Positions 16,816 to 22,415 of a stretch of 57,545 nucleotides of DNA are shown one piece after another. The notes below the pieces were generated by a model that searched no databases, was not told the origin of the DNA, and was given only the letters and a program-made list of their open reading frames with translations. Within the stretch, counting starts at the first letter, position 1. Each line of letters begins with the position of its first letter. The DNA is taken from NCBI RefSeq assembly GCF_003334765.1, contig NZ_QOWT01000027.1. One strand, written 5' to 3'. Origin of the DNA: Escherichia coli. GTDB taxonomy: Bacteria > Pseudomonadota > Gammaproteobacteria > Enterobacterales > Enterobacteriaceae. The position numbers and the translations under genes are program-made.

Positions 16816-17771
16816 TGAGTAAATCACACCCGCGCTGGCGCTTAGCAAAGAAGATCCTCACCTGGCTGTTTTTTATCGCGGTGATTGTGTTGCTGGTGGT
16901 CTACGCCAAAAAAGTGGACTGGGAAGAGGTCTGGAAGGTCATCCGCGACTACAATCGCGTTGCGCTGCTTAGTGCGGTCGGGCTGGTGGTCGTCAGCTAT
17001 CTGATTTACGGCTGCTATGACCTGCTCGCCCGCTTTTACTGCGGTCACAAACTGGCGAAGCGCCAGGTGATGCTGGTGTCGTTTATCTGCTACGCCTTCA
17101 ACCTGACGCTCAGTACCTGGGTCGGCGGCATTGGTATGCGCTATCGTTTGTACTCTCGTCTGGGGTTGCCCGGTAGCACTATTACGCGGATTTTCTCGCT
17201 CAGTATTACCACCAACTGGCTGGGCTACATTTTACTGGCAGGGATTATCTTTACCGCAGGCGTGGTGGAGTTGCCGGATCACTGGTATGTCGATCAAACT
17301 ACGCTGCGTATTCTCGGCATTGGCTTACTGATGATTATCGCGGTTTATTTGTGGTTTTGCGCTTTCGCGAAGCACCGCCATATGACCATCAAAGGGCAAA
17401 AGCTGGTGCTGCCTTCATGGAAATTCGCCCTCGCTCAGATGCTGATTTCCAGCGTTAACTGGATGGTAATGGGGGCGATTATCTGGCTGTTACTTGGTCA
17501 AAGCGTGAACTATTTCTTTGTACTGGGCGTGTTACTGGTTAGTAGTATTGCTGGCGTCATCGTGCATATTCCGGCGGGGATCGGTGTGCTGGAAGCGGTG
17601 TTTATCGCACTACTGGCTGGGGAGCATACCTCCAAAGGTACAATTATCGCCGCCCTACTCGCTTACCGTGTGCTGTATTACTTTATCCCACTGCTGCTGG
17701 CGCTGATCTGTTACCTGTTGCTGGAAAGCCAGGCGAAGAAGCTACGGGCGAAAAATGAAGCGGCGATGTGA
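16815..17771 (+). CDS. ybhN: inner membrane protein, UPF0104 / lysylphosphatidylglycerol-synthase-like TM domain
   Basis: 318-aa polytopic membrane ORF; start overlaps the clsB stop (TGATGA). Confidence 0.85.
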   Translation: MSKSHPRWRLAKKILTWLFFIAVIVLLVVYAKKVDWEEVWKVIRDYNRVALLSAVGLVVVSYLIYGCYDLLARFYCGHKLAKRQVMLVSFICYAFNLTLSTWVGGIGMRYRLYSRLGLPGSTITRIFSLSITTNWLGYILLAGIIFTAGVVELPDHWYVDQTTLRILGIGLLMIIAVYLWFCAFAKHRHMTIKGQKLVLPSWKFALAQMLISSVNWMVMGAIIWLLLGQSVNYFFVLGVLLVSSIAGVIVHIPAGIGVLEAVFIALLAGEHTSKGTIIAALLAYRVLYYFIPLLLALICYLLLESQAKKLRAKNEAAM

Positions 17772-17806
17772 AGTTTAGTTAAGTTCTTTAGTATGTGCAT
17801 TTACGG

Positions 17807-18520
17807 CTAATGAAAAAAACGCGTATGCCTTTGCCAGACAAGCGTTATAGCTATCGCGGCAAGTATCCCAAAGAAGCCGATAAAATAGTAATAGAGTGTT
17901 AATGCACCTGTAAAAGCGCAACGAACCGGACTCCACAACTCTTCACTATGGCATTTCCCCGCCAATTCAAGGAGCTTATTTCGTCCATGCGAGATAATGC
18001 CTGACCATAACACAATCATTAAGCAACTTATTACCCAAATGGGCCGTTCACTCATTAATGCCGCATTCACGATGATTACCAGGGCCAACCCTGTCAACGT
18101 CATCATAATGATAAAACGGTGAGAACCAGGATCAACATTAAATAATAAACCGGCCAGCATACTGATTAAAAACATCGCGCCCGCAGTGCTGAACACGATG
18201 ATAATGGCATATACAGGAACTAAACTTGCAACGACAATCGCCACCAAAGAGAGTAAAAACAGATATATTACGCCCGCGATGGCGGCATTTATCTTGTTGA
18301 TATCCTTACTTAAGCCATACATACAAAGTAATAATAACCCTATGGCGACATACATTGGTGGTGAATCATATTTGGTTGCCGTAATTTCGAGATACTTAGC
18401 TCCCCAGGCTAGTCCTGCGGTTGCCACCAAACCTAAAGCGGTAATGAGCCATATACCGTTTAATATCCTGGCCTCGTGCTGAAAATCTAATTTATTGCTG
18501 TTTTGCGAGTATGATTCCAT
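17807..18520 (-). CDS. ybhM: BAX inhibitor-1 (BI-1/YccA) family inner membrane protein
   Basis: 237-aa 7-TM-like ORF; visibly AT-rich (about 40% GC in sampled 60-mers). Confidence 0.8.
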   Translation of the reverse strand: MESYSQNSNKLDFQHEARILNGIWLITALGLVATAGLAWGAKYLEITATKYDSPPMYVAIGLLLLCMYGLSKDINKINAAIAGVIYLFLLSLVAIVVASLVPVYAIIIVFSTAGAMFLISMLAGLLFNVDPGSHRFIIMMTLTGLALVIIVNAALMSERPIWVISCLMIVLWSGIISHGRNKLLELAGKCHSEELWSPVRCAFTGALTLYYYFIGFFGILAAIAITLVWQRHTRFFH

Positions 18521-18724
18521 TCTTTTAGTTATCCTTAGAAAAAATATTAATATTCACCATCAATAAATTTAAAACCACGCATACAAAATACTTTTGCATT
18601 TATGGATACAGAAAACGCTTCCGCTCGTCCATAAGGCATATTTTATACCTGGTACTTGTTAAGTGTCGTTTTTAGTAAGAAAAAAATCCCGACACATGGC
18701 CGGGATAGTGATGGTGAAAAAGAA

Positions 18725-19429
18725 TTAACGGCGGTTGCCGAAGATCCGCAACAACATCAGGAACAGGTTGATGAAGTCCAGATACAAGGTTAACGCGCCA
18801 AGAATGGAATATTTGCGCAGGTTCGACGTGTCGCGGGTATCAATCTGCTCACCCATATTTTTCAGTTTCTGCGTGTCATACGCCGTCAATCCGACAAAGA
18901 CAATCACGCCGATGTAGGTAACTGCCCACATCAATGCTTCGCTTTTCAACCAGAAGTTGACCAGCGATGCCAGCACAATGCCGATTAACGCCATAAACAG
19001 CATATTGCCAAAGCCACTTAAATCGCGCTTCGTGGTGTAACCGTACAGGCTCATTGCGCCGAACATCCCGGCAGTAACGACGAAAGTACTGGCGATAGAA
19101 GCAGCGGTATAGACAATGAATATACTGGAAAGCGTAAGACCCGTCAGCGCCGAATAAAGCATAAAGAGCATCGTCGTTACACCTGCGCTCAGCTTTTGAA
19201 TCATCGCTGATAACACAATAACCAATGCTAATTGCGCGATGATCAGACCGATTAAAAAGACACGGTTAGTGAACAACAGCTCCATCACGGCCGCGGAATT
19301 AGCCGCATACCAGGCAACAAATGCGGTCAGCAACAAGCCAACGGTCATCCAGCCATAGACTTGAGCCATATAAGTTTGCAAGCCAGCCCGGGGTTGTACG
19401 ATTGAATCAGAACGTGGGAATCTGTCCAT
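18725..19429 (-). CDS. ybhL: BAX inhibitor-1 (BI-1/YccA) family inner membrane protein
   Basis: 234-aa polytopic ORF, paralogous family to ybhM. Confidence 0.85.
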   Translation of the reverse strand: MDRFPRSDSIVQPRAGLQTYMAQVYGWMTVGLLLTAFVAWYAANSAAVMELLFTNRVFLIGLIIAQLALVIVLSAMIQKLSAGVTTMLFMLYSALTGLTLSSIFIVYTAASIASTFVVTAGMFGAMSLYGYTTKRDLSGFGNMLFMALIGIVLASLVNFWLKSEALMWAVTYIGVIVFVGLTAYDTQKLKNMGEQIDTRDTSNLRKYSILGALTLYLDFINLFLMLLRIFGNRR

Positions 19430-19565
19430 GACGATCTCCTGAAGATATAAGGAATATCTTAAGGATACTGCAAAATGATGAGGCTGTGCATCGACGCAGC
19501 GTAAACGTATGTACTGAGCGGTGAAATTGCCGGACGCAGCGGTGCCTTATCCGGCTAACAAAAAA

Positions 19566-20018
19566 CTACCAGCGTTTTGCCGCCTGCTGATCGCTCTCCC
19601 GAGCTTCAACCCAGCGGTCGCCTTCCGGCGTGGCTTCGCGCTTCCAGAACGGTGCGCGGGTTTTGAGATAATCCATAATAAACTGCCCGGCTTCAAACGC
19701 ACTGCTGCGATGCGCACTGGTGACACCGACAAAAACGATTTCATCGCCCGGCCATAATTCCCCGATGCGGTGAATCACAGTGACGCGCCCCAGCGGCCAG
19801 CGGTTACGCGCTTCATCAACAATTTCTGCCAGTGCTTTTTCAGTCATCCCCGGATAGTGTTCGAGGGTTAATGCGTTGACGCTGTCGCCCAGGTTATGGT
19901 TGCGCACCTTACCAGTAAAGGTGACTACCGCACCGTCTTCGTCACGCTCCGCCAGCCACGGGTACTCTTCTCCTACGCTGAACGGCTGCGGACCAACAAC
20001 AATTTTGGTTTCTGCCAT
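19566..20018 (-). CDS. moaE: molybdopterin synthase catalytic subunit
   Basis: 150-aa ORF, last gene of the moaABCDE block. Confidence 0.9.
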   Translation of the reverse strand: MAETKIVVGPQPFSVGEEYPWLAERDEDGAVVTFTGKVRNHNLGDSVNALTLEHYPGMTEKALAEIVDEARNRWPLGRVTVIHRIGELWPGDEIVFVGVTSAHRSSAFEAGQFIMDYLKTRAPFWKREATPEGDRWVEARESDQQAAKRW

Positions 20019-21279: not shown

Positions 21280-22269
21280 TTAGCCGCCAATGTACGATAA
21301 GTTTTGCGTAATACCGGTGTTGTTTTGATGCAGGAAATGGGTCTGTTTCTTCTCCCGCAGCGCCGCTGAAATACGCGCTTCCAGCGCCTGTTGCTGGGTA
21401 TCGTCTTCCAGCAGATCGCGCAGGTTAACGCCGCCTTCACCAAACAGGCAGAGATGGAGTTTACCAATGGAGGAAACGCGCAGGCGGTTGCAAGTGGCGC
21501 AGAAGTCTTTTTCATACGGCATGATAAGGCCAATCTCTCCGGCGTAATCTGGATGGCAAAAGACTTGCGCGGGACCGTCGCTGCGTTGACGTAATTGGTG
21601 GATCCAGCCGCGACGCAGTAGCTCGTCACGCAGAACCTGACCAGAGATGTGATGCTTACGGAAGAGCTCGCTGCCCTCGCCCGTTTCCATCAGTTCGATG
21701 AAACGCAGCTGGATAGGGCGATGCTGGATCCAGTTCAGAAAGGTGTCGAGCTGGTGATGATTAACATCACGCATCAGCACGGTATTGACTTTGACCTTCT
21801 CAAAACCGGCCTCAAATGCAGCATCAATCCCTGCCATGACCTGGTTGAATTTATCCTGCCCGGTAATAGCGTGAAACTGGCGGGCGTCCAGACTGTCGAC
21901 ACTGACGTTAATGCCAGTAAGTCCCGCATCGCGCCAGCTCGCCACATCGCGTTCCAGACGGTAACCATTGGTTGTGACCGCAATCTGGCGGATAGCGTCG
22001 TTTTCCCGCACAGCGGCGATGATATCGGTAAAGTCGCGGCGTAAAGACGGCTCTCCTCCTGTCAGGCGCACTTTTTCGGTGCCCAGACTGGCGAAGGCGC
22101 GCGTAACCCGGCGAATTTCATCGACGGTAAGAAAGCCTTTATTGGTGACGCCGCTCGGTTTGTAGCCATCCGGCAGGCAGTAGGTGCAACGAAAGTTACA
22201 CACATCGGTAATCGACAGGCGCAAGTAGTAAAACTTACGCGCAAATGCATCAGTCAGTTGTGAAGCCAT
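21280..22269 (-). CDS. moaA: GTP 3',8-cyclase (radical SAM)
   Basis: Start at Met 22269 ([15 protein letters not shown]...), 329 aa; radical-[11 protein letters not shown] and C-terminal second-cluster cysteines; the ORF-track extension to 22350 lies in the leader. Confidence 0.9.
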
Positions 22270-22274
22270 GTACA

Positions 22275-22415
22275 CCTTTCCAGATACGGGAGGCGAAGTC
22301 ATTTCTTCCTTCGCCCTGGTGGCAATCTTTACGAGCATTGTCACGGCCAAAGCACCGTATCAGTTGACCCAGGTGCAGAGGCTAGAGTGTTTAGTGGTTA
22401 TGCCGATACTAGCGT
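22275..22415 (-). ncRNA. moaA 5' leader, expected position of the Moco riboswitch
   Basis: Long structured leader between the ModE box and the moaA RBS. Placement is from knowledge of the E. coli moaA leader; exact boundaries are not determined. Confidence 0.55.

What the first reader, a model, noticed from the sequence alone, without database searches (positions are those of the whole stretch)
17807..19429. Two adjacent BAX-inhibitor-1-family membrane genes (ybhM, ybhL), one markedly AT-rich
Two paralogous BI-1/YccA-family genes lie on the same strand 204 bp apart. ybhM appears about 40% GC in sampled stretches, well below its neighbours, consistent with either a horizontally acquired duplicate or an H-NS-silenced gene. 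BI-1 family proteins modulate FtsH and ion/acetate flux; a tandem pair is unusual.
Basis: seen in the sequence. Interest (0 to 1): 0.35.

Follow-up and report, generated by a model that had tools for sequence, protein, structure and literature searches.

The report
ybhM: remnant of a variable membrane-gene island
The two neighbouring genes are the known E. coli genes ybhL and ybhM: ybhL is a conserved housekeeping-type membrane protein, while AT-rich ybhM is what remains in K-12 of a fast-evolving inserted island of odd BI-1-like membrane genes that may protect cells against membrane-attacking toxins from rival bacteria.

Summary
ybhM (17807-18520) and ybhL (18725-19429) lie on the minus strand, 204 bp apart. 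Both match Pfam Bax1-I and are 25% identical. ybhM has the lowest GC (42.6%) and the poorest codon fit of about 46 genes in the window.

In most Enterobacterales, ybhL and ybhN converge with only a 50-150 bp gap. ybhM lies in a roughly 0.9 kb AT-rich insertion at that junction. Other Escherichia carry up to three divergent BI-1-like genes there, plus small accessory genes. K-12 keeps a 15-bp scar of one deleted gene.

An exhaustive search of 1.84 billion proteins finds YbhM-like proteins in only a few enterobacterial genera, at 35% identity or less. Nearly all have lost one or both aspartates of the BI-1 pH sensor, which YbhL keeps. YbhM has lost both.

Within E. coli, ybhM is nearly universal and has the same dS as its neighbours, but its dN/dS is about ten times higher (0.32 against 0.02-0.03).

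Relatives sit beside Sip4-like, SUKH-4 and TsiV immunity-type genes and a VgrG. This suggests, but does not prove, an orphan-immunity role. The genes are already annotated, so interest is modest.

The parts
18725..19429 (-). ybhL, the conserved YbhL-type BI-1 family inner-membrane protein (234 aa). It keeps both sensor aspartates, D185 and D218.
   Evidence: ORF. Pfam Bax1-I 1.1e-62. Matches BsYetJ chains at 1e-8, with 'YD' and 'LYLDFINLF' aligned. The protein is identical (same accession, WP_000373624.1) in six of the eight annotated E. coli loci examined (two differ). It is 72-100% identical across 80 Enterobacterales species. dN/dS is 0.023.
19462..19490 (-). Reported sigma-70 promoter of ybhL (TGCACA-17-TATCCT) in the moaE-ybhL spacer.
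   Evidence: The sequence was read. The promoter is listed in the Genomic SELEX table of PMC3946193.
18679..18706 (-). Intrinsic-terminator-like hairpin ATCCCGGCCATGTGTCGGGAT plus a T-run just after the ybhL stop. It marks the left edge of the island.
   Evidence: Terminator scan. In the empty-site E. coli genome L016, the same hairpin is followed directly by the ybhN 3' end.
17778..18683 (.). AT-rich inserted island in its K-12 form (about 906 bp), lying between the ybhL terminator and the ybhN stop. It holds the ybhM promoter and ybhM.
   Evidence: Boundaries come from comparison with the empty site in L016. The ybhL-ybhN gap is 50-150 bp in Citrobacter, Enterobacter, Klebsiella, Pantoea, Erwinia and others. 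GC is 0.37-0.45 across the segment.
18554..18678 (-). A 125-bp segment specific to the K-12-type haplotype, containing the ybhM promoter. In 754 of 5426 E. coli genomes it is replaced by 840 bp carrying a third BI-1-like gene.
   Evidence: blastn breakpoints. Frequency. A 72%-identical copy lies upstream of the ybhM remnant in E. albertii.
18642..18669 (-). ybhM promoter, ACGACA-16-TATAAA.
   Evidence: The sequence was read. The consensus scan finds the same -35 hexamer. It is reported as an RpoD holoenzyme site, with an H-NS site in the same spacer, in PMC3946193.
18532..18536 (-). Shine-Dalgarno-like AAGGA, 11 nt upstream of the ybhM ATG.
   Evidence: Read directly from the sequence.
17807..18520 (-). 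ybhM, a divergent BI-1-fold membrane protein with 7 predicted helices (237 aa). It lacks the di-aspartyl sensor, having G179 and Y212 instead.
   Evidence: ORF. Pfam Bax1-I 1.1e-20. AF2 model has pLDDT 84.9, pTM 0.80 and 7 helices. Sensor columns. dN/dS is 0.32. GC and codon outlier status.
17775..17789 (-). Scar AAAGAACTTAACTAA (K-E-L-N-stop). This is the 3' end of a 73-aa gene that follows a fourth paralog and a DUF3969 gene in fuller Escherichia islands.
   Evidence: blastn of K-12 against L008 and L014: window 17789-17741 matches the end of the 73-aa ORF plus the ybhN 3' end.
16815..17771 (+). ybhN (LPG_synthase_TM family), the convergent right flank of the island.
   Evidence: ORF. Annotation. 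It is adjacent to ybhL in most species.

Best explanation
Shown: ybhL is the conserved, vertically inherited BI-1 family gene at the end of the moa cluster. ybhM is not a simple local twin of it. It is the only surviving gene, in K-12-type strains, of an AT-rich, strain-variable island inserted at the convergent ybhL/ybhN terminator junction.

Fuller versions of the island in Escherichia carry up to three mutually divergent BI-1-like genes, plus DUF3969, a 73-aa gene and other small genes. K-12 lost the others by deletion.

YbhM belongs to a small, fast-evolving subfamily confined to Enterobacteriaceae. The subfamily keeps the seven-helix BI-1 architecture but has mostly lost the di-aspartyl pH sensor. 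Within E. coli the gene is old, nearly universal and still under purifying selection, though about ten times weaker than its neighbours. It has its own promoter and a published in vitro H-NS site.

Inferred (about 30%): YbhM-like proteins no longer act as pH-gated cation-leak channels. Instead they work as protective, immunity-like inner-membrane proteins against membrane-depolarising toxins delivered by competitors, for example T6SS pore-forming effectors. On this reading the island is an orphan-immunity island that is kept largely silent by H-NS.
For: Insertion at an ancestral junction. The ybhL-ybhN gap is 50-150 bp in most of the 45 survey loci where both genes were found. An empty site exists in E. 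coli L016.

Variable island. A third paralog is present in 754 of 5426 genomes. A fourth paralog, DUF3969 and a 73-aa gene occur in L008, L009, L014 and L015. A deletion scar lies at window 17775-17789. The island is AT-rich in Salmonella, Pseudocitrobacter and an unknown enterobacterium as well.

Narrow subfamily. An exhaustive phmmer search of 1.84e9 representatives gave only 97 hits. The nearest full-length non-self hits are 25-35% identical, and all named ones are Enterobacteriaceae.

Sensor loss. 44 of 52 generic BI-1 proteins have Asp at each sensor column, and YbhL has D185 and D218. YbhM has G and Y. In the subfamily, the first column is E5, K4, D1, G1 and the second is S7, D1, G1, C1, Y1. 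The importance of the di-Asp pair is described in PMC8589314.

Selection. ybhM has dN/dS 0.32 at dS 0.175, against 0.023-0.033 for ybhL, ybhN and moaE.

Regulation. Terminator, promoter and H-NS site are documented.

Immunity context.
- In Salmonella the YbhM-like gene is followed by two membrane proteins. All four copies, at two loci, hit NCBIfam 'immunity protein Sip4' at 1e-7 to 3e-4.
- The three-gene module has co-diverged between the two loci, at 44%, 35% and 40% identity.
- The second locus lies beside a TsiV-family gene (1.8e-34) and a Sel1-repeat gene.
- The E. coli GF4-3 island holds a SUKH-4 immunity-family gene, 3.7e-5.
- In Superficieibacter the YbhM-like gene lies 3.3 kb upstream of a VgrG, TIGR03361 1e-123.
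- The same junction in Enterobacter sp. BIGb0383 carries a PLD-type enzyme plus three Sel1/DUF6396 lipoproteins.
Against: No toxin gene was found directly paired with any YbhM-like gene. No paper in the searched library links BI-1 proteins to immunity.

The Sip4 hits are far below the curated cut-off (21-34 bits against 240). The SUKH-4 hit is weak.

PADLOC and PHROGs gave nothing meaningful.

About 11% of complete E. coli genomes carry a 324-bp in-frame deletion of ybhM, and IS insertions are common. So the gene is dispensable in many lineages.

Overall dN/dS is below 1, which fits relaxed constraint as well as diversifying selection does.

Confidence: 0.55

Rival explanations
1. ybhM is a decaying, H-NS-silenced relic. 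It is a former cargo gene of the island with no current function in E. coli, and it persists only because loss is slow.
For: The gene is AT-rich with the poorest codon fit in the window. An H-NS site lies in its promoter spacer. dN/dS is about ten times that of its neighbours. Roughly 11% of genomes carry a 324-bp internal deletion and many others carry IS insertions. The key family residues are lost. The rest of the island has already been deleted in K-12.
Against: dN/dS of 0.32 at dS 0.175 is clearly below neutrality. The full-length reading frame is kept in about 88% of 5426 genomes and in E. fergusonii and cryptic Escherichia clades. The C-terminal half and the loops are well conserved, and variation concentrates in the N-terminal tail. 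The gene keeps its own promoter and a Shine-Dalgarno sequence.
Confidence: 0.25
2. YbhM is a YccA-like modulator or decoy substrate of the FtsH/HflKC protease, specialised for some stress. Its variable N-terminal tail would tune recognition by FtsH.
For: YccA is the best-studied E. coli BI-1 homologue and acts through its N-terminal tail (established knowledge, not tested here). In YbhM alleles, 12 of the 19 N-tail positions vary while the membrane core is conserved. This function does not need the di-Asp sensor.
Against: YbhM has no hit to the NCBIfam YccA model, and YbhL hits it only at 23 bits against a cut-off of 353. This reading does not explain the tandem arrays of divergent paralogs, the AT-rich island, or the association with immunity-type genes and VgrG.
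Confidence: 0.12
3. YbhM is an ordinary BI-1/TMBIM cation-leak channel paralog. It does the same job as YbhL under different regulation.
For: It has a full-length Pfam Bax1-I match and seven predicted helices. Its model resembles AFDB models of generic BI-1/YccA proteins at TM about 0.7-0.76.
Against: Both aspartates of the pH sensor and Ca2+ site are replaced, by G179 and Y212, although they are present in 44 of 52 generic homologues and in YbhL. Mutating these residues abolishes or alters conductance in BsYetJ, BI-1, GAAP and RECS1 (PMC8589314). The YbhM-like profile finds no PDB chain at E<=1.
Confidence: 0.08

Closest known systems
BI-1/TMBIM family (Pfam PF01027 Bax1-I), with Bacillus subtilis YetJ as structural prototype and E. 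coli YbhL and YccA as members
   Same: Both ORFs match the family profile over their full length. Both are about 235 aa. The YbhM model has seven helices. YbhL aligns to YetJ with both sensor aspartates conserved.
   Different: YbhM and its relatives replace one or both aspartates of the di-aspartyl pH sensor. They are at most 35% identical to anything outside their own cluster. They are AT-rich, island-borne and confined to a few Enterobacteriaceae genera. The YbhM model does not superpose convincingly on the YetJ crystal structures.
Orphan immunity gene arrays, also called acquired interbacterial defence (AID) clusters, described in Bacteroidales (bioRxiv 10.1101/471110)
   Same: A strain-variable array of divergent paralogs and small genes sits at one chromosomal hot spot. 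Recognised immunity families appear in some versions: SUKH-4, Sip4-like, and TsiV at the sister locus. No toxin gene is present in the island.
   Different: No integrase or recombinase and no repeated attachment sites were seen in the E. coli island. The main cargo, the BI-1-like genes, is not a known immunity family. Protection against any toxin is untested.
Sip4, the four-TM inner-membrane immunity protein against the T6SS pore-forming effector Ssp4 of Serratia marcescens (PMC12669606)
   Same: [quoted passage not shown] Weakly Sip4-like genes sit directly downstream of YbhM-like genes at two Salmonella loci.
   Different: YbhM itself has no sequence similarity to Sip4. The Salmonella hits are far below the curated threshold. 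K-12 has no Sip4-like gene at this locus.
H-NS-silenced xenogeneic genes of E. coli
   Same: The gene has low GC and atypical codon usage, is an insertion relative to related species, and has an H-NS site reported in its promoter spacer.
   Different: It is nearly universal in E. coli and has co-diverged with its flanks, so it is ancient rather than strain-specific. In vivo H-NS occupancy and derepression were not examined here.

Membership tests
BI-1/TMBIM (Pfam PF01027 Bax1-I) | Significant full-length match to the family profile | tested here: met
   ybhM scores 1.1e-20 over residues 19-222 against model positions 3-205 of 207. ybhL scores 1.1e-62 over residues 18-230 against model positions 1-207.
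BI-1/TMBIM (Pfam PF01027 Bax1-I) | Seven transmembrane helices | tested here: met
   The AF2 model of YbhM (pLDDT 84.9, pTM 0.80) has seven helices: 3-43, 54-76, 79-100, 103-127, 134-154, 159-192 and 198-236. This is a prediction only.
BI-1/TMBIM (Pfam PF01027 Bax1-I) | Fold superposable on the solved BsYetJ structure | tested here: inconclusive
BI-1/TMBIM (Pfam PF01027 Bax1-I) | Di-aspartyl pH sensor (BsYetJ Asp171 and Asp195) | tested here: not met
   YbhL has D185 and D218. YbhM has G179 and Y212. 44 of 52 generic homologues have Asp at each column. The feature is met for ybhL and not met for ybhM.
BI-1/TMBIM (Pfam PF01027 Bax1-I) | pH-dependent Ca2+/cation leak activity | not testable with these tools
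   This needs flux assays on purified protein.
YccA-type FtsH modulator (NCBIfam NF007765) | Match to the YccA equivalog model above its cut-off | tested here: not met
   YbhM has no hit. YbhL scores 23.3 bits against a cut-off of 353.
YccA-type FtsH modulator (NCBIfam NF007765) | Binding to and degradation by FtsH via the N-terminal tail | not testable with these tools
   Only the observation that the N-tail is the most variable part of YbhM, with 12 of 19 positions varying.
H-NS-silenced horizontally acquired gene | AT-rich composition and atypical codon usage relative to the host genome | tested here: met
   GC is 42.6% against a window mean of 53.0% (sd 3.0). The codon score has z = -3.45.
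H-NS-silenced horizontally acquired gene | Absent from the orthologous site in related species (an insertion) | tested here: met
   The ybhL-ybhN gap is 50-150 bp in most Enterobacterales. An empty site is seen in E. coli L016.
H-NS-silenced horizontally acquired gene | H-NS occupancy and derepression in hns mutants | not testable with these tools
   Only an in vitro Genomic SELEX H-NS site in the ybhL-ybhM spacer, from PMC3946193.
Orphan immunity / acquired interbacterial defence island | Strain-variable array of divergent genes at one locus, without a toxin gene | tested here: met
   At least five Escherichia haplotypes carry 0-3 YbhM-like genes plus accessory genes. No toxin-like ORF occurs in them.
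Orphan immunity / acquired interbacterial defence island | Contains members of recognised immunity protein families | tested here: inconclusive
   SUKH-4 at 3.7e-5 in E. coli GF4-3. Sip4-like at 1e-7 to 3e-4 in Salmonella. TsiV at 1.8e-34 at the Salmonella sister locus. None is present in the K-12 window, and the hits are mostly weak.
Orphan immunity / acquired interbacterial defence island | Mobility genes (integrase or recombinase) associated with the cluster | tested here: not met
   No such ORF occurs in the K-12 island or in L008, L014 or L015. Only a transposase lies near the Salmonella guaA-locus copy.
Orphan immunity / acquired interbacterial defence island | Protection of the carrier against a defined toxin | not testable with these tools
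   This needs competition or intoxication assays.

The most novel reading that the evidence does not exclude
YbhM-like proteins are a previously unrecognised class of immunity or protective proteins. They would be built on the BI-1 seven-helix fold with the ion-sensing aspartates discarded. They would neutralise membrane-depolarising pore-forming effectors (T6SS, CDI or colicin-type). They would be collected, together with Sip4-like and SUKH-type genes, in an H-NS-silenced orphan-immunity island at the ybhL/ybhN junction of Escherichia, Salmonella and a few other Enterobacteriaceae.
Probability: 0.25. Interest if true: 0.7.

Novelty: new variant of a known kind. Interest (0 to 1): 0.4.

Why it matters
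ybhM is one of the E. coli K-12 'y-genes' that has never been assigned a function. This analysis shows three things:
- It is the leftover of a variable island rather than a simple twin of ybhL.
- Its subfamily has dropped the residues that define BI-1 channel gating.
- Its relatives keep company with interbacterial-immunity genes and a T6SS spike gene.

Together these give a concrete, cheap, testable hypothesis: protection against membrane-targeting toxins.

If true, it would add a new fold to the known immunity proteins. It would also show that the conserved anti-cell-death BI-1 scaffold has been re-used for bacterial warfare. And it would identify an orphan-immunity hot spot in the best-studied bacterial genomes.

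If false, ybhM remains a well-documented example of an old, H-NS-associated, slowly decaying acquired gene.

Tried and rejected
- PADLOC defence models gave no hit for YbhM, the third or fourth paralogs, or the accessory genes.
- PHROGs gave only E>0.01 noise.
- tblastn of YbhM against phages found nothing. The seven 'plasmid' hits are mislabelled chromosomal records. So no mobile-element source was found.
- Rfam found nothing in 17600-19700 at E<=1, so the 204-bp spacer holds no known RNA.
- The PDB sequence search with the YbhM-like profile gave no hit at E<=1.
I used YbhL as the anchor instead.
- The word-indexed searches with YbhM, with the subfamily alignment and with the Salmonella Sip4-like alignment found only the same enterobacterial groups.
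- The 864-aa protein between the Superficieibacter YbhM-like gene and VgrG has no Pfam, NCBIfam or PDB match. It cannot be called an effector.
- P0105 looked like a new subfamily member but is only an N-terminally shifted version of the third paralog.
- I tested whether YbhM derives from the resident ybhL. The YbhM-like HMM scores YbhL (94 bits) no higher than YbhL-type proteins of other taxa (84-100 bits), so the origin is unresolved.
- Literature searches linking BI-1 or YccA to immunity, YccA to YbhL, and DUF3969 found nothing useful.
Full report
1. THE OBSERVATION

The window is an E. coli K-12-type stretch with the gene order ybhP-clsB-ybhN, then ybhM, ybhL and moaEDCBA on the opposite strand.

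ybhM is 17807-18520 and ybhL is 18725-19429. Both are on the minus strand, with 204 bp between them.

Both match Pfam Bax1-I over their whole length, at 1.1e-20 and 1.1e-62. They align to each other at 25% identity, E 1e-12.

Composition figures are as follows:
- ybhM is 42.6% GC, with GC3 45%.
- ybhL is 48.7% GC, with GC3 62%.
- The flanking genes are 52-57% GC, with GC3 51-67%.

Among 48 long ORFs in the window, ybhM has the lowest GC (mean 0.530, sd 0.030). A leave-one-out codon-adaptation score built from the window's own genes puts it last of 46, at 0.506, z = -3.45. It uses 9 ATA and 16 TTA codons.

2. LOCAL ANATOMY

A terminator-like hairpin (18706-18686) with a T-run follows the ybhL stop.

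About 15 bp further on lies ACGACA-16-TATAAA (18669-18642). Shimada et al. list this as an RpoD-holoenzyme site for ybhM, and they flag an H-NS site in the same spacer (PMC3946193). An AAGGA lies 11 nt upstream of the ATG.

The two genes are therefore separate transcription units. No Rfam family matches the region.

3. ybhM IS AN INSERTION, AND K-12 HOLDS ONLY A REMNANT

I anchored on YbhL and fetched 80 Enterobacterales species representatives. In most of the 45 loci where both genes were found, ybhL and ybhN are convergent and only 50-150 bp apart. These include Citrobacter, Enterobacter, Klebsiella, Lelliottia, Trabulsiella, Pantoea, Erwinia and others.

One E. coli genome (L016) shows this empty state. 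There the ybhL hairpin runs straight into the ybhN 3' end. Against it, the K-12 island is about 17778-18683.

Other Escherichia carry more at this site:
- 754 of 5426 complete E. coli genomes have a third BI-1-like gene between ybhL and ybhM. It is 234 aa and 43.5% GC.
- About 28 genomes add DUF3969 plus a 73-aa gene.
- Strain GF4-3 and cryptic-clade Escherichia also carry a fourth BI-1-like gene of 232 aa and 35.5% GC.

In K-12, the bases 17789-17775 (AAAGAACTTAACTAA) are the last codons of that 73-aa gene. K-12 therefore descends from a fuller array by deletion.

The 125 bp that carries the ybhM promoter (18554-18678) replaces the third gene's 840 bp. It is old, because a diverged copy sits upstream of the ybhM remnant in E. 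albertii.

4. HOW COMMON AND HOW OLD IS ybhM

ybhM matches in 5400 of 5426 complete E. coli genomes, and at 80% coverage or more in 4788.

Most of the remainder carry a 324-bp in-frame deletion between short repeats, which gives a 129-aa product. IS1, IS3, IS5 and IS91 events also occur.

I compared eight diverse Escherichia alleles:
- ybhM has dS 0.175, like ybhL (0.164) and ybhN (0.181).
- Its dN/dS is 0.32, against 0.023, 0.033 and 0.033 for ybhL, ybhN and moaE.
- The third paralog gives 0.36.

Replacements pile up in the N-terminal tail, where 12 of 19 positions vary. The loops and the TM6-TM7 region are conserved.

The gene is thus ancient in the species and still constrained, but only weakly.

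5. WHAT KIND OF PROTEIN IS YbhM

An exhaustive phmmer search of 1.84 billion cluster representatives returned only 97 hits at E<=1e-3. Beyond YbhM's own cluster and its fragments, the best full-length hits are only 25-35% identical.

Those hits come from Escherichia (the third and fourth paralogs), Salmonella enterica (two types), Kluyvera georgiana, Superficieibacter electus, Pseudocitrobacter and two unnamed enterobacterial contigs. AFDB adds E. fergusonii, Kosakonia cowanii and Phytobacter.

An AF2 model built from the subfamily alignment is confident (pLDDT 84.9, pTM 0.80) and has seven helices. It matches AFDB models of the subfamily at TM 0.8-0.94, and generic BI-1/YccA models at about 0.7-0.76. 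It does not superpose convincingly on the BsYetJ crystal structures.

The family's di-aspartyl pH sensor corresponds to BsYetJ Asp171 and Asp195. Its role is reviewed in PMC8589314. The sensor is intact in YbhL (D185, D218) and in 44 of 52 generic homologues. YbhM has G179 and Y212 instead. The subfamily shows E, K, D or G at the first position and mostly S at the second.

YbhM gives no hit to the NCBIfam YccA model.

Its origin is unresolved. YbhL-type proteins are the nearest ordinary relatives, but the resident YbhL is no closer than YbhL-type proteins of other taxa. No phage or genuine plasmid copy exists in the collections searched.

6. CONTEXT OF THE RELATIVES

The YbhM-like genes of Salmonella, Kluyvera, Pseudocitrobacter, Phytobacter and an unnamed enterobacterium sit at the same place, just downstream of ybhL. 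Except in Kluyvera and Phytobacter, they lie within AT-rich islands that also hold small unannotated ORFs.

Salmonella. The YbhM-like gene is followed by two membrane proteins of 202 and 186 aa. A second, diverged copy of the whole three-gene module lies downstream of guaA. The modules are 44%, 35% and 40% identical gene by gene. All four membrane proteins hit NCBIfam 'immunity protein Sip4' at 1e-7 to 3e-4, far below the curated cut-off. Sip4 is the inner-membrane immunity protein against the T6SS pore-forming effector Ssp4 (PMC12669606). That second locus also holds a TsiV-family gene (1.8e-34), a Sel1-repeat gene and a DUF1266 gene.

E. coli GF4-3. The island ends with a SUKH-4 immunity-family gene, at 3.7e-5.

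Superficieibacter. The YbhM-like gene is not at the ybhL locus. It lies 3.3 kb upstream of, and on the same strand as, a bona fide VgrG (1e-123). An 864-aa protein of unknown family lies between them.

Other cargo at the same junction:
- In Enterobacter sp. BIGb0383, a PLD-type enzyme with three tandem Sel1/DUF6396 lipoproteins. This layout resembles a phospholipase effector with its immunity genes, which is my inference.
- In Siccibacter, a pair of small ORFs that I read as toxin-antitoxin-like, though they were not searched against any family library.
- In E. albertii, a phosphoethanolamine transferase.

7. INTERPRETATION

Solid conclusions:
- ybhL is the conserved family member.
- ybhM is the K-12 remnant of an old, AT-rich, strain-variable island inserted at the ybhL/ybhN terminator.
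- It encodes a member of a small, rapidly diverging, Enterobacteriaceae-only BI-1 subfamily that has lost the channel's sensor residues.

Inferred conclusion: arrays of divergent paralogs, elevated dN/dS, absence of toxin genes, and repeated proximity to immunity-type genes and a T6SS spike gene fit an orphan-immunity island. In it, the BI-1 scaffold would be re-used to protect the inner membrane from depolarising toxins. I put this at roughly 25-30%.

The main rival is a slowly decaying, H-NS-silenced relic (about 25%). A YccA-like FtsH modulator (about 12%) and an ordinary BI-1 channel (about 8%) are less likely.

No paper in the searchable library connects BI-1 proteins with immunity, and ybhM has essentially no functional literature.

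8. VERDICT

Its interpretation is partly right: the gene is acquired, AT-rich and H-NS-associated. It is incomplete because it missed the island and the sensor loss, and it is wrong to suggest a recent acquisition.

The genes themselves are already annotated. The new elements are the island structure, the sensor-less subfamily and the immunity hypothesis. Interest is modest (0.4) unless the immunity function is demonstrated.

Noticed in passing
L001 2491-3195 (E. coli O113:H21); absent from the window, where 18554-18678 takes its place: A third BI-1-like gene (234 aa, GC 43.5%, 27% identical to YbhM) sits between ybhL and ybhM in 754 of 5426 complete E. coli genomes. There ybhM lies only 69 bp downstream of it and probably shares its transcript.
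   Followed up: yes
L002 1707-2096 (E. coli SW070910): A 324-bp in-frame internal deletion of ybhM, with an 11-bp overlap at the junction, leaves a 129-aa product lacking roughly TM2-TM5. About 11% of complete E. coli genomes show this partial coverage.
   Followed up: partly
L016 6700-6760 (E. coli SCPM-O-B-8794): This E. coli genome has an empty site: the ybhL terminator hairpin is joined directly to the ybhN 3' end, with a 51-bp gap. The adjacent ybhL 3' flank is only about 81% identical to K-12, which hints at an imported segment.
   Followed up: partly
L017 7063-8724 (E. albertii NBRC 107761): A 553-aa phosphoethanolamine-transferase gene (CptA/EptA-like, 1e-41, GC 0.37) sits in the island. 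It is followed by a K-12-like promoter piece, an internally deleted ybhM (81-aa C-terminal remnant), the fourth paralog and DUF3969.
   Followed up: partly
L044 6763-11553 (Enterobacter sp. BIGb0383): The same ybhL/ybhN junction carries a 611-aa PLD-type enzyme (two HxK motifs, PLDc_2) and three tandem Sel1/DUF6396 lipoproteins. This looks like a phospholipase effector with multiple immunity genes.
   Followed up: partly
L096 8001-13275 (Superficieibacter electus): A YbhM-like gene lies away from the ybhL locus. On the same strand it is followed by an 864-aa protein with no Pfam, NCBIfam or PDB match, and then by a VgrG (TIGR03361 1e-123).
   Followed up: partly
L011 and L012 5600-11400 (Salmonella enterica, downstream of guaA): A second island carries a diverged copy of the BI-1-like plus two Sip4-like gene module. 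Beside it lie a Sel1-repeat gene, DUF1266, a DnaJ/DjlB-like gene, a TsiV-family gene and a transposase.
   Followed up: partly
L010 900-5450 and L013 5100-7800 (unnamed enterobacterium; Pseudocitrobacter corydidari): The islands hold several conserved small ORFs (about 104-163 aa), interleaved with one or two YbhM-like genes. Those submitted to Pfam or NCBIfam gave no match. A probable YbhM-like pseudogene lies at L010 2557-3037.
   Followed up: partly
window 37502-38554 (-), 38675-39691 (+), 56185-57228 (-): Three other long ORFs in the window have low GC3 (0.44-0.46). The one at 38675-39691 also has low overall GC (0.444) and the second-poorest codon score (0.547).
   Followed up: no
window about 22257-22401 (-), upstream of moaA: The matching K-12 RefSeq record annotates a molybdenum-cofactor riboswitch here, converted from L003 7658-7802. 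I did not re-scan this stretch.
   Followed up: no
window 18186-18482 (+): A 98-aa ORF lies antisense inside ybhM. It is most likely a chance ORF in AT-rich coding DNA.
   Followed up: no
L101 1692-4634 (E. coli EC14): An IS91-family transposase is associated with deletion of the clsB 3' end, ybhN, ybhM and the ybhL 3' end. This shows the whole junction can be lost.
   Followed up: no
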